NCBI GenBank assembly: GCA_000697335.1
Contig: JNEM01011008.1
Span: 1-37,545 of the forward strand
DNA: 37,545 nt
Source of the DNA: Conidiobolus incongruus B7586
Taxonomy: Eukaryota
Direction of reading: 5' to 3'
Part shown: positions 78-37,545 of the stretch, piece by piece
How the letters are laid out: each line of letters starts with the position of its first letter
Numbering within the stretch: position 1 is the first letter of the stretch
The notes under the pieces: generated by a model
Told to the model about the DNA's origin: nothing
The model's input: the letters and a program-made list of their open reading frames with translations, nothing else
Database searches by the model: none
Translations under genes and position numbers: made by a program

Positions 78-148
78 GCAATGGTGGTTTAGTGGTATAA
101 TTACCGCCTGCCACGCGGTAGACCGGGGTTCGATTCCCCGCCATTGCA
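78..148 (+). tRNA. tRNA-Gly (anticodon GCC), intronless
   Basis: Acceptor stem GCAATGG/CCATTGC plus discriminator A; anticodon arm TACCGC-CT-GCC-AC-GCGGTA; T-loop GGTTCGATTCC; T-runs downstream consistent with a Pol III terminator. Confidence 0.97.
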
Positions 149-3097: not shown

Positions 3098-4213
3098 TAT
3101 ATTCATAAAAATATTAAATAAAAACTAATTATTTATCATAATATAATATGTATAATATATATTGTTATTTAAAATTTATAATTTAAAATATACCCATATT
3201 ATAATTTTTGGTGGTAAAATTGAATTAATTAATATTATGATAATTTTTTGATTAAATACCCAAATATACTCAATTTCCTATTTAATTAGGATATTGATCC
3301 AAATAGATTAGATCTTTGTTATTTAGAGCTAATAATTGATAAAGTTATATCAAAGCAAACTGAATAGTTGATTAAGCAATTATTTCAAATTGAAAAAGTC
3401 AAAAATGAGCCATTGCTATAAAAGATGAGATCATATTTTAGAATATATTATAAATGCAATATTATATTAGTAGAATGGCTAATAAATATAGCCAATTTCA
3501 AATATATGTTTTTTATAAATATAATATTATGGATTTAGCGATAGATTTAATATTTTCGAACATTTTAATATAAACATTATAATCGTATTCCTTATACCCT
3601 ATCATTTTATTTTCAATTATCAATTTAATGATTGTAATCTGAACTAGAAAGGGAACTGAAATCTCGTTACTTGCTACTTTTAATTTTGTTAATTGTGGTG
3701 ATCTGTCAGAGTGGCCCAAACTCATATTTTAGTGAGATTGTTACAAGGTTCGGTTCTTACTAAAGTCTAATAACTCATCTTGTACTTTAGGGAAATTGCA
3801 CTCCTAGAAGTAAATCTAAAATCTCATATTATTTTTTTGATTTGATTTTAGTTTATTCGTGGTTTAATATATTGATAAATTTATCCATGATTTATAATGA
3901 AAGAAAAGCAAATATCAAAATGATGATGAGATGATATAGAAAATAAATCACTTGGATCAAACAATAATTTGAAAATCATCAAACATAAATCAATAATCAA
4001 ATGTAATCATAATCATTAAATTGTTAATTATGAAAAGATTAAAATTTACAATGAACTAAATTTTCGGTTCAATTAATTCAATCAAATTTTAAAATCAAGT
4101 CGGGAACATTAATTGCTCCTTAGATACTTATTAATATCGATGTTGATAAGTATAAATAGCATTCAAATTCACATTATTTCGATAGTTTCATAATAGTAAA
4201 AGCTTGTAATAAT

Positions 4214-5957: not shown

Positions 5958-6187
5958 TTCACTTTTATATTGATACAACTTAATATTCGTTCATAATGAT
6001 TTTTCATATTTTATACATACTATTAATAATTATTGTATTAATAAACATAACTGTATGAAAGTGTATTCGATATACTCATACAATATTACAAAATAATTGC
6101 AAAATTTTATTACAATCATTTTGAACATGCAAACTCAAAATAGATATTGGTTAGAATTAATTATTTGGAAAGTATATTGTAAAGGTT

Positions 6188-7630
6188 TTATTGAATATTT
6201 TTAAAATTGAACGAGTAACAATAATTGAAATAGCATAGAAGTACTAAAATATACCAGACTAGATGGTAGTCAAATGAATAAGGAAACTCGTGGCTCACAG
6301 AATAACTATATATAGTACCAGTTAAAGCAGGTGCTAGAGCCCCTGACATTCAGCTTAAAGTTTTACTTACACCATTCAGCATTCCCAAACTACCTGTATC
6401 ATTTGTAGATTCCACTAGCAGTATATTCAAGCTAGTATTTCCTAAAGTATTGCAAGTTGCTCTTAGTTCTATTAATATAATCATGGTGACCCACATTAGT
6501 GTATCGTTTCCCTGTTTGGCAATGTTATTCACCATTGAAATCAAATTGCATATAGACATATAGATGGGAAACACTGATTGATATAATTTTAGTGTTCCTA
6601 ACCATTGTTGCAGTTTTGTGTGAGTAACCAGTTGAACAAATAAAATCATAATACCAGTGGGTGATATTGCCTTGGCAATGTCATCATGTTCAAAACTTAG
6701 ACCTTCTTTTGAAATGTCGATAACTGACCACAATATAATCAGTTGGTTAAACATTACTGAAGATAGAGCCATCAGAGCAAATTCAATCATCACCACCTTG
6801 CTGTCATTAGATATGGAAGAGCCAAAGCGATTTTGTAACAATGGCTGTGAATTGGGATCCGAAGTTACAGAATGTATCGAACTTCCTGAATCTGATCCGC
6901 CCCTTCTATAAGATGGCTTTTGTTTCAAAGTTTCTTCCAAATAGTAAAATTCAAATAATGCAGACAATAAATTGATACTACCAGCAATTACACAAGGCAA
7001 AAAATAAGGATATGTAGTCCAAAAAGGATTACCTCCGAACCACACAGGGAATCGTTCTGCCGGTTTGGCAAGAAATCCACCAATTAAAGGACCTACCACA
7101 TTACCTAATCCCATCATCATAGGAAGATAGCTAAAAGCTCTAGCTCTGTTGGATTTATCAGTCATTTCTTCAACCATTATCTTCACAACACCTACATTCC
7201 CATAAATATACCACTCAAACTACGGGTACAAATTGCTCAAATTAACGATTTGCTCAACCCAAATAAAACTAATGCTGGATCCAATTAATCCACAGATGAG
7301 TACTACTTTCCTGCCAATCCCGTCAGACACACTACCCCAAAATATGCTGGTACACATTTGAGCGATTGCAAAACAGGATGCAATTGTTCCTACATAGTAA
7401 CCCAATTCAGATTCTCCGTCCGTAATGTTAAAATCTTTTATCATGAAATACATGAATGGAGATATAATGCTGTAGAATAGAGGTGCTGATAATCGAACCA
7501 TCAATAGGATATAAAGTTGAGGCTGTGATAATGGTGTGGGCTCGGGTTCTTGATCGACAAGTCTTGGCTCATTTGTTAACAAAGTAGTCATTTATATCGA
7601 CTGATTTTGATATGGGTCTTCACTTGCCAT
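6188..7630 (-). pseudogene. MFS transporter pseudogene (ZIFL/YCR023C-like; closest to the 16008 copy)
   Basis: Collinear with the intact paralogs from ATG 7630 to TAA 6188. Lesions: in-frame TAA at codon 13, a small deletion near 7265, TGG>TGA, a 1-nt deletion near 7205, and TGA at 6350-6352 where paralogs have Gly. Confidence 0.9.
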
Positions 7631-14242: not shown

Positions 14243-14324
14243 GACAGTTTGTCCGAGTGGTTAAGGAGTCAGACTTGAAATCTGATGGGCTCCGCCCGCA
14301 CAGGTTCAAATCCTGTAGCTGTCG
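14243..14324 (+). tRNA. tRNA-Ser (anticodon TGA), intronless
   Basis: Acceptor stem GACAGTT/AGCTGTC plus G; anticodon arm TCAGA-CT-TGA-AA-TCTGA; long variable arm GGGC-TCC-GCCC; T-loop GGTTCAAATCC. Confidence 0.96.
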
Positions 14325-17453: not shown

Positions 17454-18391
17454 ATAATATTAGATTTAGAGATTATTGATTGGTATAAGCAAAATAAAAT
17501 TATGTTTTCTCACTTAGCCCAATTTTTAGTCAAAAGTGTTTTTATATATGTATATTGTAGTATTGATATAATATATAAACCATTTTATCTACAGTATCCA
17601 AGTTATAAAATTTCAATTTTAAACAAATGAATATTATTATAAAATTGGTAAAAAAAATTTATAATGTTGGTCAAATAAAATAAAAATATAGTAATATAAA
17701 TGATTAATTATTTCTCCATAGGTGATATAATATTTATTGATACATCTCTTATTTCTTTATATTATCATTGTTATAATGAAATTATTATCCATTAAATATA
17801 GCTCAAAGCATGCTATATTTGGTTCAAGTTCAATCCTATTGGAAGTTTTGTATATTTAATTTATCTAGATCACATTTTTCATCAATTTTATATATTATGT
17901 AATCGGTTTTTCTGGAACTTAGGTTATCGGTAACAGGTATGTCTGCATTATTGGGATTACCACCAATAGCTCAAATATATGATTGATAATAACGAAATCA
18001 GATAACTTATGGAAATATCAAAATATTGTATAAAATATTACTCCCACCTTTGACCACTTGAATTTGCTTGCAGTTGATAAAATTAATTTTTATGACACTA
18101 CAATTTATTTTTGATCAATTTGTAATATAATTAGTTCATTAACTATATTATCTTCACTTATCCAATTGAGCCTGGTTTTAATTATTTTTATTTAATGAAA
18201 TTTATATTTAATACAATCTAATATATTTTTCATCTGATTTCAATATAATTTAATATTAATCTACTGGTCAAAAAGTAAAAAAATCAAATGTAAACCCTAA
18301 ATTAACTATTACTTATAAATATAGTTCTAAAATAAATAAATTCAGGAATGCGTAGATCAAATGGTCAAAGGAGAGCGTAGATTGTATTTAA

Positions 18392-18729
18392 TGTCACGGG
18401 CCGGAGGACCCGTTCGTCCTTAACAATTCAATTCATTCGAGAACCCCGTCACAGATCCACCTGCAACGTGACCACAAAATACACCCAAGCAATGCAATCA
18501 ATCGTTCCATCCGACGTACGGTTCGTACGCTGGGAAGACACGTCAAGAAACTATAAATATGCCGACTACAACCAAGTTATCACGTCTGTCCTCTTCCTAG
18601 GGTACAGCCCAATAATCCAGGTTAAACAATAAATTACCCCTTTTATATCACCAAACAGGAGCCGTCCCGGAAGACGACTATTTACTTAAAAGTTATTGGA
18701 CACTTGACTTCCCAGCCAGTGTCATTACA
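18392..18729 (+). mobile_element. Probable solo LTR of an LTR retrotransposon (~338 bp)
   Basis: Abrupt GC- and CpG-rich island in AT-rich DNA; begins TGTCA and ends TTACA; flanks TTTAA/ATTAA (5-bp TSD with one mismatch); internal TATAAATA (~18552) then AATAAA (~18628); no ORF. Confidence 0.7.
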
Positions 18730-19956
18730 ATTAATGACAATATATTAATAAAATTTTCTAGGTTTAATTTCGTAACCATCACGTTAACTAATGAAAACTT
18801 TAAATTTTTGAATGGTTTTGATTGGTTGTAGGTATTTGAAAAACTTATCATCAGAAATTTATTCCCTTGATTTTAGTATGTTTGAAAAATAAAATAAGAA
18901 AATTTAGGAATTATTAATTTCAAATATAAAATGAATTATTTCATTGATCTTAATTAATAATTAATATTTATTAAGGGTAAAATATTATAACAATCCGATT
19001 TATAAAACATTTATTTGTTAATTTCAAATTTAATACTGCTGTAAATTCCTTTTAAAATTTTTTGAACTAAAAATTCAATTTTTTTTAAATATTATCAGAA
19101 ATTAATTTTGAAAAAATAATCGAATAATACTACTAAAATAATAATAACTTTGAATTAATATAGCATAAATATACTGTAAATATATTTTTATAAATCAAAA
19201 TGACATTTTATTAATATTTCTAAATTTTATATAAATTCGGATATTAAATGATTTGTGAAATATCGAATTGGATATATTCCAAATAAATAACATTAAACTA
19301 TTAAGGTTTGATTTATTCCAAAATAAAAAAATTCTATAAATATATTATTATAAATTATTCTGTTTTAATTGAAGATTTTATGTTTTCATCTTGATTGTAC
19401 TATATTTAATATAAAAATGATTATGATAAAATCTAATTATATATTAAATTTAAAAAACATCCACACTAATTCTCTGATATGATCAAACTGGAAAATTTAA
19501 TTTATTAAAAACCTTGACAAATTAGAAATGGAACAGAATATTAGTGAAGTTTTTAGGTGACTTCACTAAGAGAAAATAAGGTCAGGCCCATTTCAAATTG
19601 AAAATTTGGAGGTATCAGAAGTACTCTTGGCAAAATATTATCAATATTAAAAAAGAATAGGATATCGGCGGCTGTATCTTTCCGCCGTAAGCGGCTATCT
19701 AGTTCGCAGCTTGGTAAGTTTAATTCATTATTTGATATTATAATCATAACAATTGATCTCCTTACTATAACGCAGTAGTGCTAAGAAATTAATGAGTAAT
19801 CAATCGGACTTGATTGGCATATTAGAATCTCAATTTGTGGGGATGAATTCAATATAAAAGAAGGTAATTAGTCTAACATTTACATTTTTGTGATTGTCAA
19901 CACTTAAGAAAGAACAATTATAATAATAATAATAATAGCAAAATAATAATTAACAG

Positions 19957-21396
19957 ATGACAACACTGAACCCAACACAAAATCAATCATTAGAGACTAC
20001 TGCGCTGTTAGCACACCCTCCAAGTCTCGAATTTCAAAGAGTAACTCCATTACCACAGCCCCAATTTTACGTTTTATTAATGGTTCGTTTTTCAGAGCCT
20101 TTAGCTTTTAGTATCCTCTTTCCCTTTATTTACTTTATGGTCCGAGATTTTAATGTTACGGACAAAGAATCGGAGATTGGTTACTATGTAGGTACTATAG
20201 CTTCTTGCTTTGCCATCGCGCAAACTTGTACTAGTATATTCTGGGGCAGCATATCAGACAGAATTGGTAGAAAACCGGTTATTATATTTGGATTAATAGG
20301 ATCTGGTTTAAGTTTGATATTATTTGGCCTCAGTAAATCACTCATATGGGCAATTCTCACTCGTAGTTTGAGTGGTATCCTGAATGGCAATGTTGGTGTC
20401 ATTAGAACTATGGCTGGAGAAATGACTGATAAATCTAACAGAGCAGTAGCATTCTCTTACCTTCCAATGATGTTTGGTTTGGGAAATATTGTAGGTCCTA
20501 TAGTTGGTGGATTTCTTGCCAATCCATCTGAACAATTTCCTGATTGGTTTGGAAATAGTACATTTTGGATTACCTATCCGTACTTTTTACCATGTTTATT
20601 TGCTGGGGTCCTAAATATTTTCAATGCTCTCTTTGCCTATTGTTATCTCGATGAGACTTTGAAACGTCAGCAATCGATCCGAAGATCTGGATCCGATACA
20701 GAAACCTTGATTGAGTCATCATCTTCCAATTCTAGTAATCATTCATTACCATTGAATGATAATTCCATATCATACGAAAGCAAAATGGTAATGATCGGTT
20801 GTACGCTCTTATCTTTCTCAGCTGTCATGTTCAATGAGTTAATTGTATTATGGTCCGCTACCCCCATCGCAAATGGAGGATTGAAATTCTCGAGACAGGA
20901 TATTGCCAAAGCACTCTCTGTTACTGGTGCTACCATTTTGCTAGTTCAATTGACTGCCTATCCCAAATTGCAGCGATGGCTAGGAACTTTGAAACTATAT
21001 AGATATATTTTTCCTATTTACATTTTTGTATGCTTTCTAATTCCAATGGTTAATATCTTTGCCAAAAATGGAGACACTTTGCTAATGTGGACATTTTTAC
21101 TAATATTACTTATGCTGAGAGCTGCTTGTAATACATTAGCTGTGACAAGCATTAATATTTTATTAATCGATTCTGCTGAAGGTAAAAGTAACTTAGGAAT
21201 GCTCAACGGTATAGTTCAAACTTTGGGAGGCGTGTCCCGATCCATTGCTCCAGCTTTAACTGGTGTTATTTATAGTTACACTTTGAGTAGTCATTTTTCT
21301 TACCCATTTGACTACCATTTTGTTTGGTATATATTATCATTGATATGCTTTTTCAATTATTTAAATTCTTTTAAAATCAATCTCAATTCAAATTAA
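19957..21396 (+). CDS. MFS transporter (ZIFL/YCR023C-like), intact copy B
   Basis: 479 aa single-exon ORF; RFSEPL in TM1; WGSISDRIGRKPV; GNIVGPIVGGFLA; YPYFLPC. Confidence 0.94.
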   Translation: MTTLNPTQNQSLETTALLAHPPSLEFQRVTPLPQPQFYVLLMVRFSEPLAFSILFPFIYFMVRDFNVTDKESEIGYYVGTIASCFAIAQTCTSIFWGSISDRIGRKPVIIFGLIGSGLSLILFGLSKSLIWAILTRSLSGILNGNVGVIRTMAGEMTDKSNRAVAFSYLPMMFGLGNIVGPIVGGFLANPSEQFPDWFGNSTFWITYPYFLPCLFAGVLNIFNALFAYCYLDETLKRQQSIRRSGSDTETLIESSSSNSSNHSLPLNDNSISYESKMVMIGCTLLSFSAVMFNELIVLWSATPIANGGLKFSRQDIAKALSVTGATILLVQLTAYPKLQRWLGTLKLYRYIFPIYIFVCFLIPMVNIFAKNGDTLLMWTFLLILLMLRAACNTLAVTSINILLIDSAEGKSNLGMLNGIVQTLGGVSRSIAPALTGVIYSYTLSSHFSYPFDYHFVWYILSLICFFNYLNSFKINLNSN

Positions 21397-22003
21397 TTTT
21401 AATCTGACAAATTGATATCTTTATAATAACATTCTTACCTTTCTCAATCGCATCAAAATAAAAATATTTTTTGAGTTAATATTTGTAGTCTTTTTTTCAA
21501 AGCCAATTGGAATATTGATTAATAATTTCAATTTGATCTATTTGGTACAATTAATTATTTAAATTATTATCAATTTAGAATTTATATATTTATGAACCTG
21601 TTAGTTGTAATTAAATTTATTTTATACAATATTACCGAACCGAAATTTGAAGCAATAAAATGGAATATCATTTATTATTTTGAGAAATAATAAAATAGAT
21701 TAATAAATATTTCCGAAATTTCTCATTTAATTTCTAAAAAATAATGATAAAATATATAGTATTATTAAAAATATTGATAATATTAAATTTCTTCAAAAAA
21801 ATATTAATACAGGCTAAAATATCAAATTTTCTAAAAAATGGATCTTTGATTAAATATATTAAATCCATAAGATACTTAGTCAATGTGTCATTATTTTTTT
21901 ACTGAATAATGGACATAATATTTTTAAACTTGCTAAACCATAGTTATAATTTTGGTATAATAAATATACTAATAAAAATATTGCCTAAATTTTGATTTTG
22001 GAT

Positions 22004-23386
22004 ATGTCAGGTCAACGAAAAAATAATTACACAGACGAGGCAACACTACTAGTGTCTAACACTCAGGAAGTCGAGACTCCTCTACTACAACCACAGTTTA
22101 CCATTTTGTTATTTGCACGATTCTCAGAGCCCTTCGCATTCAGTCTGTTATTTCCCTTTGTTTACTTCATGGTGAAGGATTTCAACCTAACTGAAGATGA
22201 AACTCAACTTGGATACTATGTAGGTACCATAGCTGCTTCATTCGCAGTAACTCAAACCTGTACGAGTTTATTCTGGAGTAATTTATCAGACAGAATAGGC
22301 AGAAATTCTGTGATTATTACTGGATTAGTGGAAGCAGGTGCTATTATGGTCCTTTTTGGATTGAGTAAGACTTTGGCCTGGGTAACTGTCGCTTGAAGCA
22401 TTAGTGGTATGCTGAATGGCAACATTTTTATGGTTAAGACTAAGTATTCAGCCGCTTACCTCCCCTAAATGGACTTGAAAATATCTTGTGTGCTGCTACT
22501 GGTAGTTATCTATCCAATCCTGCGGATAAATCCCCATCAATCTTTGTAGGTATCGGATTCTTCAAGCTGTATCCATACTTTTTATCCTGCTTCATCTGCG
22601 GGCTTCTTAATTTGACTAATTCCACTGTTGCATATTTATTTTTGAATGTAACTTTGGTTTCTAAAAAATTGTCCAAATGATCCCAAGATAATGAAAGGTT
22701 GATCGATCCTCAGTCTTTACATCCATAAATCCAATCCCAGATGATAACCAAGCTTGCAAATTTTCAGAGTCAACAGAGAGGAAAATCGTCATATTTGGAT
22801 TTGGACTAATTACATCAATATCAATAATTCCTAATAAACTATTTGTGTTATGGTAAATGATATCAATTCCCTATGGAGGCCTTAACTTTGTAATAGAAGA
22901 TATTGTCAGAAGATTGACTATTGATGGTATATGTATCCTTGTTATCCGACTAATTACTTTCCACATCATCCAAAAAATGTATCAGTGTTTTCAATCTATG
23001 TAGTCATGCATTCTTCTTATATATACTAGCGTGTATTGGAACTGCTATGTTGAATTATTTAGTTATTAATAATCACTATACTGTGGATTTATCTGGACAT
23101 TTTTAATATTCTGAGAGAGGTTTGTGTGATTACGGCAGCAACAAGTTTACATCTCATGCTAATTGGCACGATGGATGATGAAGGCAATTTAGGAAGTTTG
23201 AATGGTTTTTACCAAATATTAGCTAAGTTGGTCAAAGCTATTGAGCCAATTTTGTGTGATACTGTTTAGAGTTGGTCCCTAAGTCATAACTATTACTTCC
23301 GTTTGAATTGTCATTTTATATAGTGCGTATTGACTTTTTAATTTGTAATTAATTATTTGATATCATATTTTATTAAAATCTAATAA
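22004..23386 (+). pseudogene. MFS transporter pseudogene (paralog of the 25052 copy)
   Basis: Collinear with 25052-26473 from ATG 22004 to about 23386. Stop at 22394-22396, a deletion around 22440, and many further stops and frameshifts. Confidence 0.9.
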
Positions 23387-25051
23387 ATATATTGTATTAC
23401 ATATAATCAATTGATAGTAATTAATTTATCAAAATATACATGTATTTCTCATAAGTTAATTTTAATCTTAAACAGGATTATTCATTGTTTTTGTATTTTA
23501 TGTTATAATTTTAAAAGCATAAATATTACTGGAATAAGTATTAGCTTTCTCAATGTTTAGACTAAAATTTTAATTTATCCAATAAGTACGAATAAAGAAT
23601 CATTCAAATCATAATAATTTTTAATTTTTAACTCAACCAATATTGTTTATATATTACCCAAATGTTAGCAATAGCACATCAAAAATATATGCAATATAAT
23701 ATCATAATGCTTAATTTAATAATATCTTCTATTCAAACTTATAGGCATTGCGCTATAATACGATATTTGCCAATTAACAAATTTGAAATTGTGTTTATAA
23801 TTCAAAAAAATTATTTTGACAATAAACAATACTTTTTGATGAAAATTGTTAATAATCTTTATCATATGCGTGGATTTTGGATCAAGTTCAAATTTCAAAC
23901 ATAATACTAAAAGATTGAACAATATTTCAAATACTAAAGTTAGAAAAATTGAATTTTAAATAATTTTCATAACTGGTAAGAAAAAAATTAGTTACCAAAT
24001 ATAGTGATAAATCATTTGAAATTTAGCATATCCAAAATTTAAATGATTTATTACTTGATATTGCTGATACACTGACATTTTACTTTATATTCAAATATAT
24101 ATTATCAGGGCTTAAATTTGAAATAATTTCAACTATTTAAAATCTTTTAATAATCTATTTTACAAGTTTATTCTAAAAATGGCAACAATACTTATTATAT
24201 TCAATGGATTTCAATTAAAAACTACTTTAATTTTTTGTCATCACTTTAAATCGAATAAAATTTTCATTATATTATTAATTTTAATAAACATTAGTTTTTA
24301 ATCATATTTTTAGGTTAAGAAATTGAACTTTAACATTTTGAATAATAATACTATTATTTATAATATATATAATCAATTTTTCAATTATTAATCAAATTTA
24401 TAATATTTTATCTAATTTCGGAATTAGGATTTTGACAGGATAATTCCGGGAGAATGCTTCCAATAATAAGGATAATGCAGGGTGTTTCCCATTCACTTAC
24501 TAACTAATTAGCCACTTTTAATAAGCTTTATAGTATTTATGCGATATGAAATATCTATAATTTCCCTAATCCAAGTTATTTGGAAAAATTTCAAATTTCT
24601 AATACTAATAAATTAAATCAAGTTCAATATTCATTAATTGCCTAACTTGGAAATTGGCATTTGAAGTATTTTATGATATTTTGGAATAGTTAATAATCAA
24701 ATCTAAATATTTTTTATTCAAAAAATCAATTTATAGTTAATGATAAGTATGTGCTTCTCTAAAAGAAGTTGAAATATGTATTAAGCATTGATCCATATAT
24801 ACAATAATAAAAGTTATTTCTATTTTTATCAAATTTAAATTTCATAAGAATATTCCAATTCTCTTAAAATAATTACAATAGTCATAAGATTTAGGGAGAA
24901 GAGCTAAACTATGCATTCAAAAAAGTAATATTATCAAATGTAAAAAATTATTAACCGTAATAAACCTTGGTAATATGCAATAAAACACGATATTTCAATT
25001 GTATAAATACGCATTTAAAGAGTAGTTATTCGTTGTAACTTGATTTCAAAA

Positions 25052-26804: not shown

Positions 26805-27140
26805 TATATTTAAACGAATATGATCAATATGTTCTGATGTGAGTTTATCTAATTTCCTTAAACATTTTGAGAGGAATATACATTATTATGACAATGACAA
26901 GTTTACAGTTTATTCTAGATGGCACAGCTGATAATAAGGGCAATTTGATAATTTTAAAACTTTATAATCAACCTTTATCGAATTATTTCAGGCTACTGGA
27001 CCAACTTTATGCCGCGTCGTCTACAGCTAATCTCTTAAACATTGATATCACTTTCCTTTGAATGGATATTTTAATTTGTATTTATTAATTTTGCAATGCA
27101 GAAGCAATTATAGTATACTATAGTTTATTTAACTTAATTA
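26805..27140 (+). pseudogene. Degraded C-terminal fragment of the same MFS family
   Basis: Translates to YDQYVLM*VYLISLNILRGIYIIMTMTSLQFILDGTADNKGNL..., matching YDHYTLMWICLIFLNILRGICLVMAAISLQLMLVDTVGDQGNL of copy C. Contains stops and frameshifts; boundaries are approximate. Confidence 0.8.
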
Positions 27141-28990
27141 GATACTCTAATAACTTTAACAATTGAAAATTTTTTATTTTGATTTTGATATTTAGAACTT
27201 AAAATTTAGAAAAAAATCATTTTTAATTTCATTAATTCAAAAGATATATATAATTTAATAAATATTGACAGTTTAAATTTTTATTATTAACTGATTAGAA
27301 TATTGATTATTTTTCAATTATTTTTTATATACTTGCTTAATCAAATCTCTTTTATATATAGATTGAAATTTAATGTTATTAAAATATATACTCTAGTTAA
27401 GTTTAAGTTAACCATTAATATCTGAATAATATCTTTCATAATTATTTCAATATTATTTTAGATGAGTTTAACTAGAATATTGGAAAATCAAATAAAAAAC
27501 ACTTAATTAAATATTAAAAACTTTATTTTAACTATATAAAATAATATTATATCTTTCATATTTTTTTAATTTTTATATAATGAAAAGATTTTATTCAAAA
27601 TAAAATTTGAGTTATCATATAACTTTCTTTAATTTTTCAAGTATAGCTTTATAAAATTAATAAAATTCTAAAAATTTAAGTTGATATAAAATTTTATATC
27701 TATTTTACTCTTTTAATTTATAAATTAATTATATAAAATTAATCAATCTATAATATAAAAAATCAAAATTATAATAATAATAATATAAATGACAACTATT
27801 GTATTATCTCAAAGTTAAAAAAATTATATTATAAATAAATAGGAGAATATATAGTTTTAAACTATACTGAGGGAGTATTTTAACTCCTTGTTCCAAGAAC
27901 TGGTGATATTCTAGATAATCCATTTTATAAGCCACTGTTTGATGAGTTTGAAATATTTAAACTATCCAACTTTCCTAAATAAACCCTCTCCTCTATTTCT
28001 ATTAACTTTAACTTTACTCTTTCTTTATCTTTTACTTACCTTTTTGGCTCTTTTGCCTGATACTTTATATCCTTTTACAGAATTCCTCCCAATGGGGCAA
28101 GTTTAAACCCTAACAAAATAATGATTTAATAAAAGATATAGGTTTTAATTACATTGTAATAAAAGGAGCTAAAGAATATCAATTAATTATAGACCAACAA
28201 ATCCATTTTAAATAGGAGGTAATATGGACTTAACTATCAAATCTAGACAGACAGATATTTTTGAAATACAACAATATTATATATCATTGTATAAATTATC
28301 AATTTTTGATCTTATTGAAAAAGGTAAAATATATTTCAAATACATTTTATAGAGTTAATATTGCTAAAATTGGTTTCGATATTGATATAAATTTATTGAA
28401 ATTGTTTTAAATTCTGAAATATGTGAAAAAGTATTTTCAAAACGTTGTAAATAAATAATCAAATAGCTGTAATTGGTATTATAATTTCATCAATTAGTGA
28501 AGAAGGAATTGATAAATTAGATCTTGAATAGTTTAAAAAAGTCAAATTAACCCAATATTCAAAACTAATAAAATAACTTGGAATCATTTAATGATTATTA
28601 AATCAACTTGAATCAATAGAAATTATAATCAATTGAAATATTTATCAAAATGCCATAAAGAATATAGAATAATAAACAAGTTGAAAATAAATTTAATAAG
28701 AATAGTATAGTTGAAATGGTATAATAAACTTATAATCATGCTTGAATATTTATTAAATCTGATTATATATTATAAACTGACTCTAAGTTGAAAAATCAAT
28801 TGAAAGCATATTGGTCTGATATTTGATTTTGTCGATTTCCACAAAAATAAGATCAAAAATATTCAATTAAAAATTATCTAATCCCATAATTTCATCAATT
28901 CAAAAATATATATATATATATATATTAATTTTTTTCAATCAAAAGCAACTTTTGAATGATTGATCATCGTTAACAATTTAATCAATTAAT

Positions 28991-30811
28991 ATGAGTCAAA
29001 TCAAAAACCTCCAACAACAAATTATCGATCATGGTAATAAAGTACGCCAATTAAAAGCTGACAAGACCGAAAAAGAAGTAATCGATGCTGAAGTACAAAT
29101 TCTCAAAGATCTCAAAAAGAAGCTAGCAGAATTAACTGGGGAAGACCCCTCAGAAAATAAAAAGAAGTCAAAGCAATTCGTATTAAAAACTCCCAAGGTA
29201 TTGCTTACAGCTTTGAATTCGGGTTGAATATTAATAGTAGAATAGGGTACCAAAGATTACAATGATAAGGAGATGGCTATTCGTGAACAAATTTTCAGTA
29301 CCATTACCAAGGTTTTTAAGAAGCACGGAGCTATTACGATTGACACCCCAGTTTTCGAACTCAAAGTAACCCTAATTGTATAATTGATATGCCAGCGAAA
29401 TTAATTTGTAATAGGATATTTTAGCTGGCAAATACGGTGAAGATTCTAAATTAATCTATGATTTGGAAGACCAAGGAGGCGAAAAATGTTCCTTACGTTA
29501 TGATTTAACAGTAATTAGTCAAAAAATGTGTGATGGAATGATATTAATATTAGTGTTAGGTTCCTTTCGCTCGCTACTTGGCTATGAACTGCACAGCTAA
29601 TCAATCCATCAAGAGATATCAAATCGCCAAAGTATACAGAAGAGATCAACCCGCTATGACCAAGGGAAGAATGAGAGAATTTTACCAATGTGTAAGTAAA
29701 TGAATTTGACATTTAATCAATGTATTAAGACTTGATCTAATAGGATTTTGACATTGCCGGCAATTTCGAGCCCATGGTACCCGACAGCGAAGTGATAACC
29801 ATTATGGCTGAAGCTTTAACAGAATTAGAAGTTGGTAAATTCATCATTAAACTTAACCATCGCCAAATCTTGGATGGATTGTTCCAAGTTTGCGGTGTGC
29901 CCGAAGACAATATCCGTCCTATTTCCTCAGCTGTTGACAAGCTCGATAAATTACCTTGGGCCGATGTTAAGAAGGAAATGGTCGAGGAGAAGGGATTGGA
30001 TCCCGCTGTCGCCGATAAGATCGGAGAGTATGTCAAATTGAATGGTGGTAAGGAGCTCTTGGACAAATTGGAGCAAGACGAAGTGTTAATGGCCAACGAG
30101 AGTGCTAAGCAAGGTGTCGCCCTCATGAAGGTCTTATTCAAGTACTTGGAAATTTTCGACGTTTTGGATAAGGTCAAGTTCGATTTGAGTTTAGCTAGAG
30201 GACTTGACTACTATACCGGCGTCATTTACGAAGCTGTTTTAGCTGACATTGACGAATCTACCCCTGAAGAACTTGCCGCTAAGAAGAAATCTTCCTCCAA
30301 GAATGATGAGGATGACGACAGCCAAGTTCGCGTTGGTTCCATTGCTGCTGGTGGTCGATACGACAACTTAGTCGGAATGTTCGCTCAAGGTGCTAAGAAG
30401 AACAGCTCCCTTCAAATTCCCTGTGTCGGTGTCAGTATTGGTGTTGAACGTGTATTCTCTATCCTTCTCAAGCGCTCCAAACTCGAAGAGGTCAAAGCTA
30501 ATCAAGCTCAAGTTTACGTCATCGCCGTCGGGGACGGTCTTTTGGAAGAACGTATGAAGCTCTGCTCCGAACTCTGGAAAGCTGGTATTGCTGCCGAATT
30601 TGCCTATAAGGCTAAGCCCAAACTCCAAAATCAGTTCACTTACTGTGACAAAGAACATATTCCTTACAGTGTTATCATTGGTCAAGGTGAATTAGATCGT
30701 GGTGTTGTCAAGATTAAGAATATGACCAGTAAAAATAAGGAAGAAGGTGATGGTGTTGAAGTCCCCAGGTCTGATTTGATTAAAGAATTACAAACTAGAT
30801 TAAATTTGTAA
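28991..30811 (+). CDS. HTS1: Histidyl-tRNA synthetase with N-terminal WHEP domain, 5 exons, ~540 aa
   Basis: Exons 28991-29197, 29246-29365, 29415-29510, 29560-29691 and 29744-30811. Motifs [71 protein letters not shown]. Confidence 0.97.
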
Positions 30812-31028
30812 TCATATTTTACTAATAATAAACCTAATTTTTGATCATTAATATTCAATTTATCAATGCAATCCCATCTCCTCAAATCTTTCTTACAAAT
30901 CCCGATTTTAGTTCATTGATTTATTTGATAAATATATATATATTTATATAAACATAATGTCAATTAATGAATCAAAAATATATTTATTAAACAGTAAACT
31001 AAATAATTAACATAAAAAACTAGTATTT

Positions 31029-33177
31029 TTAATAAACGTGAGCTAAACCATGTTTACGACCGTCACTCAATGCTAAGAAAATATATCAATATTCAAATAT
31101 AAAAAGCTAATCATATAATTTACCTTCAATTTCCTTATTTTTCAACCTCTTGACAATTTGAACAACAGATTTGTGACCTGGCCACTTAGTAACATTATGA
31201 CCCTTATTCAACAAATCATCGATAATCCCCTGATCAAAAGTTTTCTCAAGGAACACACTCTCGGGAATCAACTGATGATGAATTCTAGGAGTATCGATAG
31301 CAGCGTTAAGGTCTTTGCCATTAACCAAATTTTCCACCAGGATTTGAGCTACAGCTGAAAGGATACGACTGCCACCACTGCCTCCCAAAGTTATGAGTTC
31401 ACCGTTGGGAGTCACGACAATTGTAGGGACTGTTGAACTCAATGGACGTTTTTTGGGCTCTATCCAGTTCAAGGGACTTGGGAACAGGCCGAAATCGTTA
31501 CTGACACCCGGAATACTGAAATCGTCCATTTCATCGTTGAGGATGATACCAGATTTGGGTGTCATTAAATGGCTACCAAAGATGAGATTTACAGTGCTAG
31601 TTAAGCTTACAGCATTGCCATCGGAGTCAATTACCGAAATGTGAGTAGTACCTGGAAGCTCCTTGGTATCGTACTTGGGGTGATAGTATTCAAAGTTATG
31701 AGTTTTTGACATATCGACTTCGTCGGATAATTTGTCAATATATTTGTCAGTTAATATCTTTTTGGAGTAGCTAGTAATATTTTGGTGAAAGGCGGGATCT
31801 GCAATCTGAGTTCTCATAGCGAACCCGAATTTGAGACATTCTACAAATTTGTGATAAAGTTCGGATTGATTGCCTATACCGTGACGTTGAATGACAGTTT
31901 CTAAGAGCTTCAATGTACTGATTAAAATGGTACCAGCACTTGGAGCAGAACTAGAAATGACTGTAGAGTTGAAGAATTTACCAATGGATGGTTCTCTGGT
32001 TATTGGCTCATAATTCTTCAAATCTTCAAGGGTTAAAATACCACCATGTTTGTTAGCGAATTCTACAATTTCCTCAGCGATGGGACCTTCGTAGAATGCC
32101 TTGCTACCAACTTGAGAAATTTGTCTCAGTGTCTGTCCTAGTTCTGGACGTTTTATTAATTCATCAATTTCTACTAATTTGCCACTGGGTGCGTAAACTT
32201 TGGCAAATTCTGTATTAGTCAAAATCCAATCTTCATTTTCTCTCAACTGCTTGACCAATTCGACACCTGCTGGGAATCCCTGTTCACATAATTTTATAGA
32301 TGGTTCAAATAATTCGCTCCATGGTAACTTTCCATACTTTTTATGGAGTTTTTCGTAACCTTTAACTTCGCCAGGGACTGCTACGGATAGACCGCCCACA
32401 AGGATTTTGTTGGGGTCATCATTGTACATAGTTTTATTGGAGGCTTTGGGTGCAGTTTCGCGGAAGTCAATTAATTCCGACTTGCCGTCCGATGTGCGGA
32501 TTATAACAAATCCTCCTCTATGACAAATGGGTTAATGATCTATTTAGAAATTGATATGTATGATATATTTTTATTTACCCTCCAATGCCTAAATTATTGT
32601 ATTAGTAACATAATAATTTATTAAATAAATTTGGAATTTACCTGACGAAAATCCATTCATAACACCTATACAAAGACCAGTAGCAATGGCGCTATCGACA
32701 GCCGATCCACCTTGTTTCAGAACTATAGAATCATTATGATTAATATCTTTTGAAAAGAAAATATTTCAATAAAACTTACTATCTACACCAATTTCAGAAC
32801 ATTTTCCATTTTCACTAGCTACACCAGCATGTTTGCCCCTAACCAATGTGGTAGGTACCTCTTCGTATGGGTTTTTAGATACTTCGGTAGCTTTAACTTT
32901 ATTATAATTAGTCAATAATAACTGCACAATTTATGATCAACTTACTATGTTTTGAGTTGTTATTATTACTATAACTTATCCATTTCACCGAAAACCAAGC
33001 GAAAGTACCAAGTAGTAAAACATTCACAATAAGCAGCAGTAACTTATTACGATGGGGTAACAATCCCTTCTTCTTTTTGGGAACTGATTCTTTTAATAAA
33101 GGCTCAAATTCATTATTATTAATTGATAATTTAACAAATTTGGAATCATTCTCCAACTGATTATTATTCACTATCAT
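31029..33177 (-). CDS. GGT1: Gamma-glutamyltranspeptidase (type II membrane anchor), 6 exons, ~623 aa
   Basis: Minus-strand exons 33177-32946, 32890(or 32896)-32780, 32722-32642, 32588-32579, 32517-31124 and 31072-31029. Motifs GGSAVDSAIA, SGIGGGGF, IDFRETAP, VAVPGE, catalytic GTTHISV, NDEMDDFS, KRPLSS, GGSGGSRI, SDGRK. Confidence 0.95.
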
Positions 33178-35871
33178 TATTTTCAAATAAATTAAATTAT
33201 ATTTTTAAAAAACTTATTTTAAAATTAAAAAAATTTTAACACTGAAATAAAATTTAAATATTATTAATAATGAAGTTGAAAGTATACAGTATTTATAGGG
33301 ATTTAAAATTGCATGAATTAAAGATTATTAATACTGAATGGATAAGGGTTGAATTAGTGTCATGAGACCATTTGATTAGTGTGACCCTCAACAGTCCTAA
33401 AATTAAGTGAGATAATATAATAGTGGAAATTTAGTAGAAAGTTGTTGATACAATATATCTCAATATTGTAATAGATTATTAAATAATGAGTATATTAACT
33501 TTAATAATGGTATTCAATTCTAAGAATTTATATTAATCTGATTATTACTATTTATCAAAAAAAATCTAGATTTGATAGACTTTGTTAAAGATTAAAATAT
33601 GACTCATAAAAATTTTTGGATAATTTATTTTGCCATTCGACATCCAACAAAAATTGTAAATTAAAATTTACTAAATTAGGTATAATAAGAACTAGATAAT
33701 TCTTCAGAAAACCCTGAATAACTGTTAGTGGCAAATTGGAAATTGGCATAATTACTTGATTTGAATATTGGTTAACGATTAGAGCTGTGGTTCTATGAAT
33801 CGATAAACAATATAATATTTTATCAATAGAATTCGACTATGTTAAAACACTTGAGGAATCACACACGCAGATTAATTTGAGATGATTTGGTGTATATCCT
33901 GATAATCAATTTTGAAATATTGTGCCAATGAATCAAGTAATACTAGTCAGAATAAATTATCAATATGCAATATTAATTGTCAGCAATCTAGTATTAATAT
34001 TTGTAGAAGGATTTCTTGAACAATTCAATGAAATGATTAATGATTTCTTTGATAAATGTAATCTTAATGAATATATAGATTCTTAATTCTTTAATCAATG
34101 TTCACCATTTATGAAAGGAATTACCATTATTTTAGACAAAAATAGTGATTAGCTTAGATATTATAAATAATCTATTAACAACTAAAATGGGTCGCATAAT
34201 TTGTCATAAATTTCTCACTAGTATTTGAAAATACAACATGAATATTCCAATTATTTTGGATAAAACTTTTAAACTTCAAAAAATATGGTATTAAATTTTG
34301 GTGCACTCTATTGAAAATTGAAGTATCTGACCAATTTTTCTCAGAGAAGCTGAATTAAATAATTGAGTATTGGGTATATCAATCAAGTGACTGTTTTAAA
34401 TGTATCATTCCAATTCTTAATGAAGATTCGGATGAATTCAATTCTATAATAGAGTATAATTCTAGTAAATATTTAAGTATAAGTGATTCTAAGATATTAG
34501 TTGTTATGAACAAGACCAAATTACCATTTAGGATTTATTTGGTTATTGAAGTGCAGTGTGAAATTACATAACTCATAGTATTAATGTCTATAATTGATAT
34601 TTTTACATTTAATATATATCTGTTTAATGATAATTACGATCGATTCGCTTACTTTTTTATATCTGATTGAAAAAAAACCAGGAGTTTTTTAATAAATGAG
34701 AAACACTTGCTTAAGGTCACCCATATGTTTTTGAACCAATAATAATTGAACAACTATTAACAGAATTATTGGATAATTAAAGACTACATTTTATTAAAAT
34801 TGTTTATTACAGATTCAAATAATCAATAGTAAGCATTCCTACAAGTAGTATTTAAATTTAAACTCATTTATTTAAATAAAATTATAAAAATTTCAATATT
34901 TTGTACTATTGCTTTATTGTATATCTGATGAAAATAAAATAATCTATTTGAAATTCAATTATTATAATTATTGCCAATATTATCACTATTCAAATATTTG
35001 ATTCTAAAATTTTTCAATTAAACACCATAGTGTTCAAATTAAATTTTAAAATATTTTAAGCAATAATATCAAAGTCAATTCTTAAATTTATAGTTTTTTT
35101 TCTGTAAAACTCAACTAAGAAAATGTTTAAATTATTAAAAATTATTAAATTTTAAATTTTAAATTAGATCTTATTATAATTAGTTATTGATTAATATTTT
35201 ATTACTTTAACCCTTTACCAATTTTGTTCTAATATTTTTTTCATTCAAATTGAAACAATATTAAATTATACAGTAGTTATTCATTGTTCATTTTAAATTT
35301 AATACAATGTATTCATTGTCTATTTTATGATAATTATTCATTATTTGTCTAGTTTTTCAAGTTTCATCATGAAATGAGAAAACCATTTATTATTTAATTA
35401 AAGTGTAATTAAAAACAAAAAAGTTACTAATATATTTGGAAATGACATTTTGAAACCTATTTTATCAAACTTGAGCTATAAGCTTTTGAAGTGAATTAAT
35501 TATATTAATGATTATATATATAAATCAATATGATAATATTAAAACCAAATTTAATAGAGCTATAGCCACAATGAAATTTTTGATTATTGTTAATTTAGAG
35601 TGTGTAATTCATAGCATTCCTTATTATAGTTCTATTTAGATCTGAGTTGACAGACTTAAAACTTGAAAATTTATCACTTGACTAATATAAGCTGATTTAG
35701 TTCATGTATTAGTTGAATCCCATTTATTGCAATTGTATTATATTATAGATTATGTTTAATAATATCCACTCTCTATGTTTCTTACTATAATAATAATTCA
35801 AATTTATAATAGAATATTATATTAAATAGTTTTATAATTTTATAATAATTCTATAATTACATCTAATATTA

Positions 35872-37179
35872 TTACTTTGCATTTTTAATAATGGGAATTT
35901 TTTGCAATTAAAAATAAATAAACATTTGAATATATGATATATAAAAATAAATATATAATATAAATTTAATAGTTTCTTTTATTATTAATAACTTTTTGCT
36001 ATACTTTTAACAAACTTCTAACACCTAAAAAACAATTCTTTTTATTAAAGATTGAAATTTGATGTTTCACAAACCAATTAAATTTTCCTGTAGAAATTTT
36101 CTTTCTTATAAGCTGGTTTTTTAATTACCTAAAGCAATTATAATTACATAGGTTATAATCAAAGGAATATACTAGATATGGTAGTTTTTTCTAGTTATTT
36201 TTAATTAGAAAGTTTTTTACAGCTTTAGATTTATGTATTTTATAATTATCATGTAAAATAATAAGTCTTCTTAAATTATATTGAGAACACTAATTAGAAA
36301 TACTTTTATTTAAAAAAACAATATATAATTTATTATTAATTAATTTTCCTTCAGGAACTAAATAAGAATAGCATATACTATTATAATCTATTATAATAAT
36401 TAATATTTACTTATTAATAAAATATTTATTTAAAGGGATTTGTAGAGAAGGTTAATTTAACTTAATCTAGCATTTTGATTTGTGTTTTAGTAAAAGATTA
36501 TACATAAAGATTTAAGATTCATCAATTGTAATTATTTGCTGTAAAAGTCTAGGCTTCTAGTAATATTTTAATAGGTTTTGTTTAACAATAACTACTCTAG
36601 CTTTTTTTTAAGCTTTAGTTAAATTATAAGGTATTTATTTTATATTTTTATTTATTAATTTTAGTTTAAACTTTAAAATATATAAAATACTTGTAAAACT
36701 AATATTAAAGTGCTTAGATAATTCTCTAGCTAAAATAAAAAGGTGCTTTTCAATATATTTTTTCACTCTATTTATAATTGAAAAAATAACAGTTAAAGTT
36801 AATCTTTTAGATTTTAACAGGTTTTGAATAGTTTCTCTTTTAGCTTTAAAGTAATTTACCTAGCAATAAATTGTTAATTTAGATAATGCTTCATTATTAA
36901 AAGCTGCTTGTAAATTTTAAATAATTTTAAAGGGTTTATGGTTAAGTTTTACTAATACCAAAATAAAAAACTTTTGATGATTACTATTTAGTTTAAGTAT
37001 GATTAAATTAAACAACCAATTTTAAAAAGTTAATTTTTTAATCAAAAAAACTAATATATATATATATTAAAAATATATAATTTCTTATTAACTTTGTATA
37101 TATTTATTTATTTCAAACTAATAATATGTTTGAAAAATCAGAAATTAAAAAATTTCCCATTATTTTAAATTCAAGGTAA
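35872..37179 (-). mobile_element. Full-length mariner (Tc1/mariner, DD34D) DNA transposon, inactivated, ~1308 bp
   Basis: TA at both ends (35870-71 and 37180-81). Imperfect ~30 bp TIRs: TTACTTTGCATTTTTAATAATGGGAATTTTTT versus TTACCTTGAATTTAAAATAATGGGAAATTTTT (the latter read on the minus strand). Encloses the transposase pseudo-ORF. Confidence 0.92.
35966..37000 (-). pseudogene. Mariner transposase pseudogene (345 codons, no frameshift, 13 internal stops)
   Basis: Manual translation: LQAAFNNEALSKLTIYC*VNYFKAKRETIQ (HTH); K*IPYNLT (WVPHEL); IITIDES*I (TGDEKW); ILHDNYKIH (HDNARPH); LPYLVYSFDYNLCNY (HPPYSPDLAPSDY); GVRSLLKV*QKVINNKRNY*. There are 34 residues between the HDN Asp and the third catalytic position, now AAT. 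Confidence 0.93.
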
Positions 37180-37278
37180 TAAATTTATTTTTTTTGATTA
37201 TTATTAAATATTTAAAATTTTTATAATATTAATTTTTTTTTGAGATTAATCAAAATTTTACAAATAATAATAATAATA

Positions 37279-37384
37279 TTACCTTGAATTTGAAATAATG
37301 GGAAATTTTTTAATTTCTGATTTTTCAAACATATTATTAGTTTGAAATGAATAAATATATACAAAGTTAATAGGAAATTATATA

Positions 37385-37416
<32 letters not shown>

Positions 37417-37545
37417 TAGTTTTTTTGATTAAAAAATTAACTTTTTAAAATTGGTTGTTTAATTTAATCATGCTTAAACCAAATAGTGATCATCAAAAGT
37501 CTTTTATTTTAGTATCAGTAAAACTTAACCATAAACCCTCTAAAA
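37279..37545 (+). mobile_element. 5' end of a second copy of the same mariner, in opposite orientation, truncated by the window end
   Basis: Reverse complement of 36925-37181 with 10 substitutions and a longer (TA)n tract; preceded by TA (37277-78); intact ATG at 37470 reading MLKPNSDHQKSFILVSVKLNHKPSK. Confidence 0.92.

What the first reader, a model, noticed from the sequence alone, without database searches (positions are those of the whole stretch)
35966..37545. RIP-like directional C>T / G>A hypermutation of a repeat in an apparently non-Dikarya fungus
Seen: the transposase keeps all 345 codons in frame but has 13 stops, all TAA or TAG. Many fall at expected Trp or Gln positions, and I saw no CpG in the element. 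Seen: aligning the two copies by eye (36925-37181 vs 37277-37545) gives 10 substitutions. All are transitions, 7 at CpA/TpG and 3 at CpT/ApG, and 9 of 10 have the A/T allele in the left copy, including ATG>ATA. By contrast the neighbouring MFS pseudogenes decay with indels and mixed changes. Established: CpA-biased, indel-free C>T mutation of repeats is the hallmark of RIP, characterised in Pezizomycotina where it depends on the RID methyltransferase-like protein. Inference: this genome has a homology-dependent genome-defence mutator, possibly with different machinery.
Basis: partly seen in the sequence, partly recalled or inferred. Interest (0 to 1): 0.88.

Follow-up and report, generated by a model that had tools for sequence, protein, structure and literature searches.

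The report
RIP-like transposon hypermutation in Conidiobolus
A multi-copy mariner transposon in an early-diverging fungus close to Conidiobolus carries mostly C-to-T changes, many of them outside CpG sites, which likely reflects a methylation-linked anti-transposon mutator resembling RIP, a defence so far established only in ascomycetes.

Summary
The host is sister to Conidiobolus coronatus (Zoopagomycota). The element is a 1,308-bp mariner (35872-37179): 345 codons in frame, 13 internal TAA/TAG stops, no CpG.

Reads from one sample show a large family: 17,129-22,804 contig pieces lie on 1,036 bases. In run X2, 173 of 193 C/G sites vary to T/A, but only 7 places show C>A/G>T. Of the 40 best-supported rows (of 340), 38 are C>T/G>A in this copy: CpA 17, CpT 17, CpC 4, CpG 0. 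Neighbouring single-copy pseudogenes show mixed changes and frameshifts. CpG-only decay is rejected.

RIP's defining features (homology dependence, premeiotic timing, RID) could not be tested because no genome is held. The context is broader than Neurospora's, and CpG loss extends 1.2 kb into the flank. Best reading (0.55): a DIM-2/DNMT1-type methylation-linked mutator. True RIP is 0.22.

RIP-like signals in Entomophthorales were already proposed from indices (PMC11105155), while a kingdom-wide screen scored C. coronatus as no-RIP (PMC12543289). This is per-site evidence on an open question, not a first report.

The parts
35872..37179 (-). Full-length decayed mariner (Tc1/mariner) element, 1,308 bp, with TA directly outside both ends
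   Evidence: Terminal repeats found by pattern scan, 0 matches in 100 shuffles; TA flanks seen in the sequence; relatives carry Transposase_1 and HTH_48 domains
35966..37000 (-). Dead transposase frame: 345 codons, 13 internal TAA/TAG stops, no frameshift, GC 18.6%, zero CpG; RIP product 1.28, substrate 0.74, composite 0.54
   Evidence: stringent thresholds (>1.15, <=0.75, >0) from PMC7882544 passage
35872..35897 (+). Imperfect terminal inverted repeat, 3' end of the element
37154..37179 (-). Terminal inverted repeat, 5' end of the element
37279..37545 (+). 5' end of a second copy, head to head with the first and cut by the window end; less mutated or a collapsed consensus
37180..37278 (.). 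99-bp AT-rich spacer between the two copies
34648..35871 (.). Flank with no CpG (7.6 expected at the intergenic rate, P=0.0005) but normal CpA
22004..23400 (+). Control: MFS pseudogene with mixed substitutions and three frameshifts
6170..7591 (-). Control: MFS pseudogene with mixed substitutions and two frameshifts
29744..30811 (+). HisRS exon used to place the host, sister to Conidiobolus coronatus

Best explanation
Copies of a large mariner family in this Conidiobolus-like fungus carry a strong excess of C-to-T changes on both strands, inside and outside CpG, and the likely cause is a repeat-targeted mutator linked to cytosine methylation by a DIM-2/DNMT1-type enzyme. Shown: the family is large; its variation is 86-87% transitions; non-CpG cytosines are hit; C>A changes and indels are rare; single-copy pseudogenes nearby decay differently. 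Inferred: (1) after the element spread, copies were packaged as silent chromatin and methylated in CpG and non-CpG contexts; (2) methylated C became T, by deamination or by the enzyme's own mutator activity, fastest at CpG (now gone), then CpA, then CpT and CpC; (3) CpG methylation spread about 1.2 kb into the flank; (4) Trp, Gln and Arg codons became TAA/TAG and killed the transposase without breaking the frame. Not determined: whether this happens in mitosis (as with Zymoseptoria Dim2) or at the sexual stage, and whether pairing of homologous copies is sensed.
For: Family variation (one sample, three runs). X2 has 288 transitions among 332 places. C>T occurs at 81 of 91 C and G>A at 92 of 102 G, against C>A 6 and G>T 1. 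At 115 places this copy has A/T where others have G/C by transition, against 2 by A>C/T>G. There is one indel row. In the 38 shown A>G/T>C rows, 55-94% of family depth still has C/G; contexts are CpA 17, CpT 17, CpC 4, CpG 0. Of the 17 CpA rows, relatives favour CpA in 6, CpG in 1, and cannot tell in 10. Protein anchor: at columns >=70% conserved in 28 relatives, 34 of 56 mismatches are reachable by C>T/G>A alone (random codons: mean 9.9, max 20 in 3,000 draws) and none by the reverse alone; with 80 more distant relatives, 31 of 49. Every transition-only route to TAA or TAG needs a CpA/TpG hit (genetic code). Simulation: CpG-only decay gave 13 or more stops in about 0% of 300 runs; the best grid fit was CpA 1.0, CpT 0.4, CpC 0.4 with CpG set hot (chi2 9.0, against 19.1 for equal CpA and CpT). 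Control: pseudogene C>T:C>A is 36:9 against 173:7 in the family (p=0.0009); C>T share is 36 of 97 against 38 of 40 (p=6e-11). Only 1-kb windows overlapping the element have a positive composite RIP index. Precedents: Dim2-dependent mitotic C>T at CpA in Zymoseptoria (PMC8016269 passages); Neurospora DIM-2 prefers CpT, and a DIM-2 homologue is reported in Phycomyces (PMC13297926 passages); 5mC sits on repeats in Phycomyces and Linderina (PMC11258239 passages).
Against: No methylome and no gene inventory for this organism, so the enzyme is not shown to exist. Zoopagomycota are described as 5mC-poor (PMC11258239). In Zymoseptoria, Dim2-linked mutation spares CpG, whereas here CpG is gone. That CpG was lost by mutation is inferred; a CpG-poor founder is not excluded. 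CpA preference among the shown rows is not significant (17 of 76 against 21 of 155; p=0.09). Only 40 of 340 rows were displayed, chosen for support, which favours sites where most copies keep C. X2 has 29 A<->T places, and one A>T row is carried by about half the depth; a C>T mutator does not explain these. The pseudogene control mixes in changes from before inactivation (intact paralogues show 38, 33 and 23 changes) and uses a different method from the family count. The simulation assumes host codon usage and the amino-acid make-up of relatives only about 21-34% identical. One family, one sample.
Confidence: 0.55

Rival explanations
1. True RIP or a convergent equivalent: duplicated DNA is recognised by pairing at the sexual stage (zygospore formation) and mutated C-to-T in bursts, by a RID-like or unrelated enzyme.
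For: Near indel-free, transition-dominated decay confined to the repeat; the ORF passes stringent RIP thresholds. CpA is the best-fitting non-CpG target. The closest paralogous genes in the window are only 67-74% identical, below the 80% that RIP needs (PMC3318451 passage). Conidiobolaceae include zygospore formers (PMC9409958 passage). Entomophthorales have two-domain methyltransferases with a RID-like layout, and Zoophthora radicans scores 24.2% RIP-positive windows (PMC11105155 passages).
Against: [quoted passage not shown] The Entomophthorales candidates are 12-14% identical to RID and their authors decline to call them homologues. C. coronatus and all 8 of 8 Zoopagomycota rows are 'no_rip' (PMC12543289 supplement file 12). 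CpG is gone and CpT is common, unlike Neurospora. CpG loss runs 1.2 kb beyond the element. The family reached high copy number, which efficient RIP would tend to prevent (inference).
Confidence: 0.22
2. Ordinary decay: a genome-wide AT-biased mutation rate plus CpG-only 5mC deamination acting on unselected transposon copies.
For: Intergenic DNA is about 20% GC. Pseudogenes also lose C to T faster per site than the reverse (25 of 166 against 21 of 303 in one). CpG is under-represented window-wide (o/e 0.75) and lowest in pseudogenes and the element.
Against: 21 of 38 shown sites are CpT or CpC and cannot descend from CpG by transitions. The CpG-only model fails, and the CpG-hot plus uniform models miss CpA and CpT together. 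C>A occurs at 7 places against 173 for C>T, versus 9 against 36 in pseudogenes. There is no frameshift in 345 codons, against five in the two pseudogenes.
Confidence: 0.11
3. A methylation-independent DNA cytidine deaminase acts on transposon DNA, for example during transposition or transcription.
For: It would also give transition-only, indel-free change with broad context (own knowledge of AID/APOBEC-type enzymes; no call).
Against: Changes fall on both strands about equally (63 A>G and 52 T>C places). The bias is on the 3' neighbour. Complete CpG loss, including in the flank, points to 5mC. No such enzyme was looked for.
Confidence: 0.06
4. Artefact: the repeat belongs to a contaminating ascomycete with ordinary RIP and was joined to the host contig by misassembly.
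For: The repeat lies at the window end. The flank-element junction was not checked with reads, and no listed contig spans the laid stretch. All data come from one sample.
Against: The same runs hold 83-86% of the words of 29700-37545, including HisRS. The element has a TA and a terminal repeat at the junction. CpG loss continues into the flank. The named relatives of this mariner group are arthropod elements and one archaeal IS630, none fungal. None of the 120 best HisRS hits listed is named as Dikarya.
Confidence: 0.05

Closest known systems
Repeat-induced point mutation (RIP) of Neurospora crassa and other Pezizomycotina (RID, DIM-2)
   Same: C>T/G>A transitions concentrated in repeats, frame-preserving stop codons, CpA as the leading non-CpG target, RIP indices above stringent thresholds.
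   Different: The host is Zoopagomycota. CpG is gone and CpT/CpC are substantial targets. Homology sensing, premeiotic timing and RID are untested.
Dim2-dependent mitotic C>T mutation in Zymoseptoria tritici (PMC8016269)
   Same: Repeat-confined, over 95% C>T, non-CpG, tied to a de novo cytosine methyltransferase, no sex needed.
   Different: There over 98% of hits are at CpA and CpG is spared. Here CpA and CpT are equally numerous among shown sites and CpG is gone. It is an ascomycete.
RIP-index signal in Entomophthorales (Zoophthora radicans, Entomophthora muscae; PMC11105155)
   Same: Same subphylum and same proposal of RIP outside Dikarya.
   Different: That evidence is the composite index in 1-kb windows in giant genomes. 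Here it is per-site family variation with an internal pseudogene control, in the Conidiobolus lineage.
TpCpG hypermutation in Pucciniomycotina (PMC3318451) and ordinary CpG 5mC decay of transposons
   Same: Loss of CpG in repeats by C>T.
   Different: Those are CpG-confined. Here at least 21 of 38 shown sites cannot be CpG-derived.
mariner (DD34D) family of Tc1/mariner transposons
   Same: About 1.3 kb, about 345-codon transposase, short terminal inverted repeats, TA target, Mos1-type HTH and Transposase_1 domains in relatives.
   Different: This copy is dead, with at most 21-34% identity to any intact protein found. The closest relatives are unnamed environmental sequences.

Membership tests
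RIP (Neurospora-type) | C:G>T:A transitions dominate, with few indels or transversions | tested here: met
   288 of 332 places are transitions, one indel row; 38 of 40 shown rows
RIP (Neurospora-type) | Excess is specific to repeated DNA | tested here: met
   Differs from two single-copy pseudogenes; only element windows have composite index >0. One family only, and the methods differ between test and control.
RIP (Neurospora-type) | Strong CpA target preference | tested here: inconclusive
   CpA 17, CpT 17, CpC 4 of 38 shown (p=0.09); pair 6 of 20 CpA, 3 of 16 CpT, 0 of 9 CpC; model fit CpA about 2.5 times CpT, with CpG gone. Broader than Neurospora.
RIP (Neurospora-type) | Triggered by homology between copies (over about 400 bp and 80% identity) | not testable with these tools
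   Needs engineered duplications or copy-resolved assemblies; no genome held
RIP (Neurospora-type) | Acts premeiotically in the sexual cycle | not testable with these tools
   Needs parent-progeny sequencing
RIP (Neurospora-type) | Requires RID/Masc1 | not testable with these tools
   No genome. The literature places RID in Dikarya. Per-species gene tables of PMC12543289 were not seen.
Dim2-dependent mitotic mutator (Zymoseptoria-type) | Mutations over 98% at CpA, CpG spared | tested here: not met
   CpT as numerous as CpA; no CpG left
Dim2-dependent mitotic mutator (Zymoseptoria-type) | Functional Dim2 and non-CpG 5mC on repeats | not testable with these tools
   No genome or methylome
CpG-only 5mC deamination | Excess confined to CpG, with CpA/TpG gain | tested here: not met
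   CpA o/e 0.73 in the ORF against 0.98-1.32 in the 1-kb windows from 1 to 27,000; 21 of 38 sites CpT/CpC; model fails
mariner (DD34D) transposon | Terminal inverted repeats with TA target | tested here: met
mariner (DD34D) transposon | Mos1-type HTH plus DD34D catalytic domain | tested here: met
   Met through relatives: HMMER E=2.6e-32 over residues 5-344, Transposase_1/HTH_48, 34-residue spacing in 33 of the 33 relatives (of 80) where the motif was matched. This copy alone scores DDE_3 at E=4e-4, below the cutoff.
Ascomycota host (would make this ordinary RIP) | Host genes group with Dikarya | tested here: not met
   HisRS 88-89% identical to the C. coronatus cluster; clade support 100/100, and 95/94 with Entomophthora, Massospora and Neoconidiobolus. 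The tree used 27 chosen relatives, none Dikarya, because none was named among the 120 best hits.

The most novel reading that the evidence does not exclude
Conidiobolus has a true homology-sensing, RIP-equivalent genome defence that works without RID and with its own target order (CpG, then CpA, then CpT/CpC). Repeat-directed mutagenesis would then either predate the split of Zoopagomycota from Dikarya or have evolved twice, and a small-genome, easily cultured zygospore former would be the place to find its machinery.
Probability: 0.2. Interest if true: 0.85.

Novelty: new variant of a known kind. Interest (0 to 1): 0.6.

Why it matters
Whether RIP-like defence exists outside Dikarya is open and the literature disagrees. 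One study proposes it for Entomophthorales from dinucleotide indices, with stated caveats (PMC11105155). A 1,239-genome screen finds it only in four ascomycete classes and scores C. coronatus as no-RIP (PMC12543289). This locus gives per-site evidence, with an internal control, that non-CpG cytosines in repeats are hypermutated in the Conidiobolus lineage. It also hints at why screens can miss it: against 20% GC intergenic DNA, a mutated repeat at 17-19% GC barely stands out (inference). Conidiobolaceae grow readily in culture and some form zygospores (PMC9409958), so the mitotic-versus-sexual and methylation questions are directly testable.

Tried and rejected
No whole genome is held, so copies could not be collected one by one and RID/DIM-2/DNMT1/DNMT5/deaminase genes could not be searched for.

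Searches that found nothing useful:
- A word-indexed protein search with the read-through transposase found no hit among 1,585 candidates. Full HMMER found 990 hits, the best 150 at 21-34% identity, so no intact member of this exact family was seen. This is weak, because the family is shattered in short-read contigs.
- A terminal-repeat scan of metagenome contigs gave 0 matches. A HisRS scan gave 21 loci, best identity 72%, none a close relative, so the empty-site flank could not be compared.
- A Pfam scan of five intergenic regions in six frames (30 translations) found no second transposon, only the GGT and WHEP exons.
- No RNA holder was listed. Run X1 could not be read. The flank, the flank-element junction and the right copy beyond the shared part were not examined with reads.
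- The primary DNMT survey (Bewick 2019) is not held and is cited only second-hand. A supplement search in PMC11105155 for methylase orthogroups found no data rows. In PMC12543289, files 13-19 were not searched and three were too large to read; they may list Rid1/Dim2 for C. coronatus. PMC8105982 was uninformative.
- Own-scan look-ups by place, words and sequence were empty.

Rejected readings: an ascomycete host; CpG-only decay; uniform C>T (misses CpG, CpA and CpT together); absence of TGA as strong evidence on its own (P 0.02-0.16 across models).

Full report
OBSERVATION. On the minus strand, 37000..35966 reads as 345 codons in one frame with 13 internal stops, 7 TAA and 6 TAG, no TGA. There is no CpG between 34648 and the window end. 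The head-to-head copies differ by 10 transitions, 7 at CpA/TpG and 3 at CpT/ApG, 9 with A/T in the left copy (p=0.02). The ORF has RIP product 1.28, substrate 0.74 and composite 0.54, passing the stringent thresholds quoted in PMC7882544 (passages). No 1-kb window away from the element has a positive composite value.

HOST. The HisRS exon is 88% identical to a cluster that contains Conidiobolus coronatus. In a 28-row maximum-likelihood tree it is sister to that cluster (100/100), inside a clade with Neoconidiobolus, Entomophthora and Massospora (95/94). I used 27 relatives (26 of the 120 listed hits plus the named cluster member). No Dikarya were included because none was named among those hits. 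The host is therefore an entomophthoralean zoopagomycete next to, but distinct from, C. coronatus. No whole genome is held.

ELEMENT. Terminal repeats lie at 35872-35897, 37154-37179 and 37279-37304 (3 matches, 0 in 100 shuffles), each with TA just outside. This gives a 1,308-bp element and the start of a second copy cut by the window end. HMMER over 1.84 billion proteins gave 990 hits; the best is E=2.6e-32 over residues 5-344 at 26% identity. The 9 scanned relatives carry DDE_3 (9 of 9), Transposase_1 (9 of 9) and the Mos1 HTH (5 of 9). The catalytic spacing is 34 in all 33 of 80 relatives where the motif matched. It is a mariner.

FAMILY-LEVEL EVIDENCE. Four runs of one sample hold 83-86% of the words of 29700-37545; this may be the source sample, so it is not independent. 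Three could be laid on 35980-37015: 22,804, 17,129 and 17,197 contig pieces, mostly 90-95% alike. The element is therefore a large family. Summed depth suggests some hundreds of copies, but the tool warns that depth is no copy number. At a 1% threshold, X2 shows 332 variable places, 288 of them transitions (X3 271 of 315, X4 274 of 319). C>T appears at 81 of 91 C and G>A at 92 of 102 G, but C>A at 6 and G>T at 1. At 115 places this copy has A/T where others have G/C by transition, against 2 by A>C or T>G. One indel row is listed. Only 40 of 340 rows were displayed, the best supported: 38 are A>G/T>C, one C>T and one A>T. In the 38, 55-94% of X4 depth keeps C/G, so this copy carries the derived letter (inference from majority). 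Their contexts are CpA 17, CpT 17, CpC 4, CpG 0, against 59, 104 and 30 cytosines still present in this copy (Fisher p=0.09 for CpA). They fall on codon positions 15/15/8, as expected without selection. Some CpA rows could be former CpG: relatives favour CpA in 6, CpG in 1, and cannot decide in 10. At both pair sites with family data, the right copy has the majority letter, so it may be a collapsed consensus.

PROTEIN-ANCHORED TEST. Against 28 closer relatives, 7 of 13 stops sit where Trp or Gln is commonest (18 of 344 columns; p=4e-7), 2 where Arg is, and 4 elsewhere. At columns at least 70% conserved, 34 of 56 mismatches are reachable by C>T/G>A alone, none by the reverse alone, and 22 need other changes; random codons give 9.9 on average, at most 20. 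At 50% conservation the counts are 53 of 110, with 3 reverse and 54 other. By the genetic code, every transition-only path to TAA or TAG includes a CpA/TpG hit, and the CpG-only product TGA is absent.

CONTROL. At codon positions 1-2 shared by the other four MFS copies, the two pseudogenes show 36 C>T, 33 T>C, 12 T>A, 9 C>A, 6 T>G and 1 C>G (strand-collapsed; 97 in all) and five frameshifts. Their C>T contexts are CpC 15 of 94, CpA 11 of 100, CpG 5 of 18 and CpT 5 of 97, with no CpA preference. The family differs: C>T:C>A is 173:7 against 36:9 (p=0.0009), and the C>T share is 38 of 40 against 36 of 97 (p=6e-11). The control is imperfect: it includes changes from before inactivation (intact copies show 38, 33 and 23), and the counting methods differ.

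MODEL. I simulated C>T decay of 80 related transposases back-translated with host codon usage. CpG-only decay did not reach 13 stops (0.00 of 300 runs) and predicts CpA gain (160 against 57 observed). Uniform decay leaves CpG and gives equal CpA and CpT (observed 57 and 113). The best of 120 grid points has CpA 1.0, CpT 0.4 and CpC 0.4 with CpG set hot; equal CpA and CpT fits worse (chi2 19.1 against 9.0). This depends on the assumed founder composition.

FLANK. The 1.2 kb outside the element has no CpG (7.6 expected, P=0.0005) but normal CpA. This suggests CpG methylation spreading from the repeat, and that the element is truly linked to host DNA. It could instead be an unrecognised older repeat (no Pfam match).

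MECHANISM. Shown: repeat-associated, both-strand, non-CpG C>T excess with few transversions or indels. Inferred: a DIM-2/DNMT1-type methyltransferase marks the copies and the marks turn into T (0.55). Dim2 causes this kind of mitotic mutation in Zymoseptoria, though at CpA only (PMC8016269, passages). Neurospora DIM-2 prefers CpT, and a DIM-2 homologue is reported in Phycomyces (PMC13297926, passages; PMC7862722, passages). Repeats are the 5mC target in Phycomyces and Linderina, although Zoopagomycota are called 5mC-poor (PMC11258239, passages). True premeiotic, homology-sensing RIP remains possible (0.22), but none of its defining mechanistic features could be tested. RID is reported only from Dikarya in the passage shown (PMC5751038, passages and supplement rows). 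Ordinary decay (0.11), a deaminase (0.06) and contamination (0.05) are weaker. Unexplained: 29 A<->T places in X2.

WHAT IS KNOWN. PMC11105155 (passages; supplement search) already reports RIP-positive windows in Entomophthorales (24.2% in Z. radicans) and suggests RIP outside Dikarya, with caveats. PMC12543289 (abstract, passages, sections 8 and 9, rows of supplement files 1 and 12) finds strong signatures only in four ascomycete classes and marks 8 of 8 Zoopagomycota, C. coronatus included, as no_rip. PMC3318451 (passages) describes CpG-confined hypermutation in Pucciniomycotina. PMC12210899 (passages) still treats RIP as ascomycete-specific. PMC9409958 (passages) says zygospores are present or absent in Conidiobolaceae. 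Searches showed no paper with alignment-level evidence in Conidiobolus. Most of those hits I saw only as listings, and the library lacks most subscription journals. Earlier AI notes from this scan describe similar patterns in Endogonales and Dimargaris; they are unchecked leads, not support.

VERDICT. The feature is real and not ordinary CpG decay. It works like RIP in outcome, but membership of RIP is not shown and its context differs from both Neurospora RIP and the Zymoseptoria mutator. New variant of a known kind; interest 0.6.

Noticed in passing
window 27018-28377: A second long CpG-free run (1,359 bp; the next longest elsewhere is 638 bp) with lowered CpA and the highest composite RIP index away from the mariner (-0.14 to -0.18). 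Possibly another decayed repeat; no Pfam match.
   Followed up: partly
window 34648-35871: CpG is absent from 1.2 kb of flank while CpA is normal; CpG is also low in 33051-34647 (10 against 16 expected, P=0.08). This could be spreading from the element or a separate old repeat.
   Followed up: partly
window 35966-37000: The closest relatives form a mariner group known here only from unnamed environmental contigs. The named, more distant relatives are arthropod elements, which raises horizontal transfer from an arthropod host as a lead; no tree or donor test was run.
   Followed up: partly
window 35980-37015: 29 places vary A<->T in the family (run X2) and one is carried by about half the depth; a C>T mutator does not explain them. 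They may be subfamily marks or misalignment in AT-rich DNA.
   Followed up: no
window 6170-27062: Cluster of MFS transporter genes: three intact, two frameshifted pseudogenes and one fragment, 64-74% identical at DNA level.
   Followed up: partly
window 1341-3097 and 4160-5957: Two tandem genes, 69-71% identical in the aligned exons, that look like cytochrome P450s by motif (recalled motif, not scanned).
   Followed up: no
window 78-148 and 14243-14324: tRNA-Gly(GCC) and tRNA-Ser(TGA) genes.
   Followed up: no
window 37180-37278: The two copies sit head to head 99 bp apart, each with its own TA; either local re-insertion or an assembly join at a repeat.
   Followed up: no
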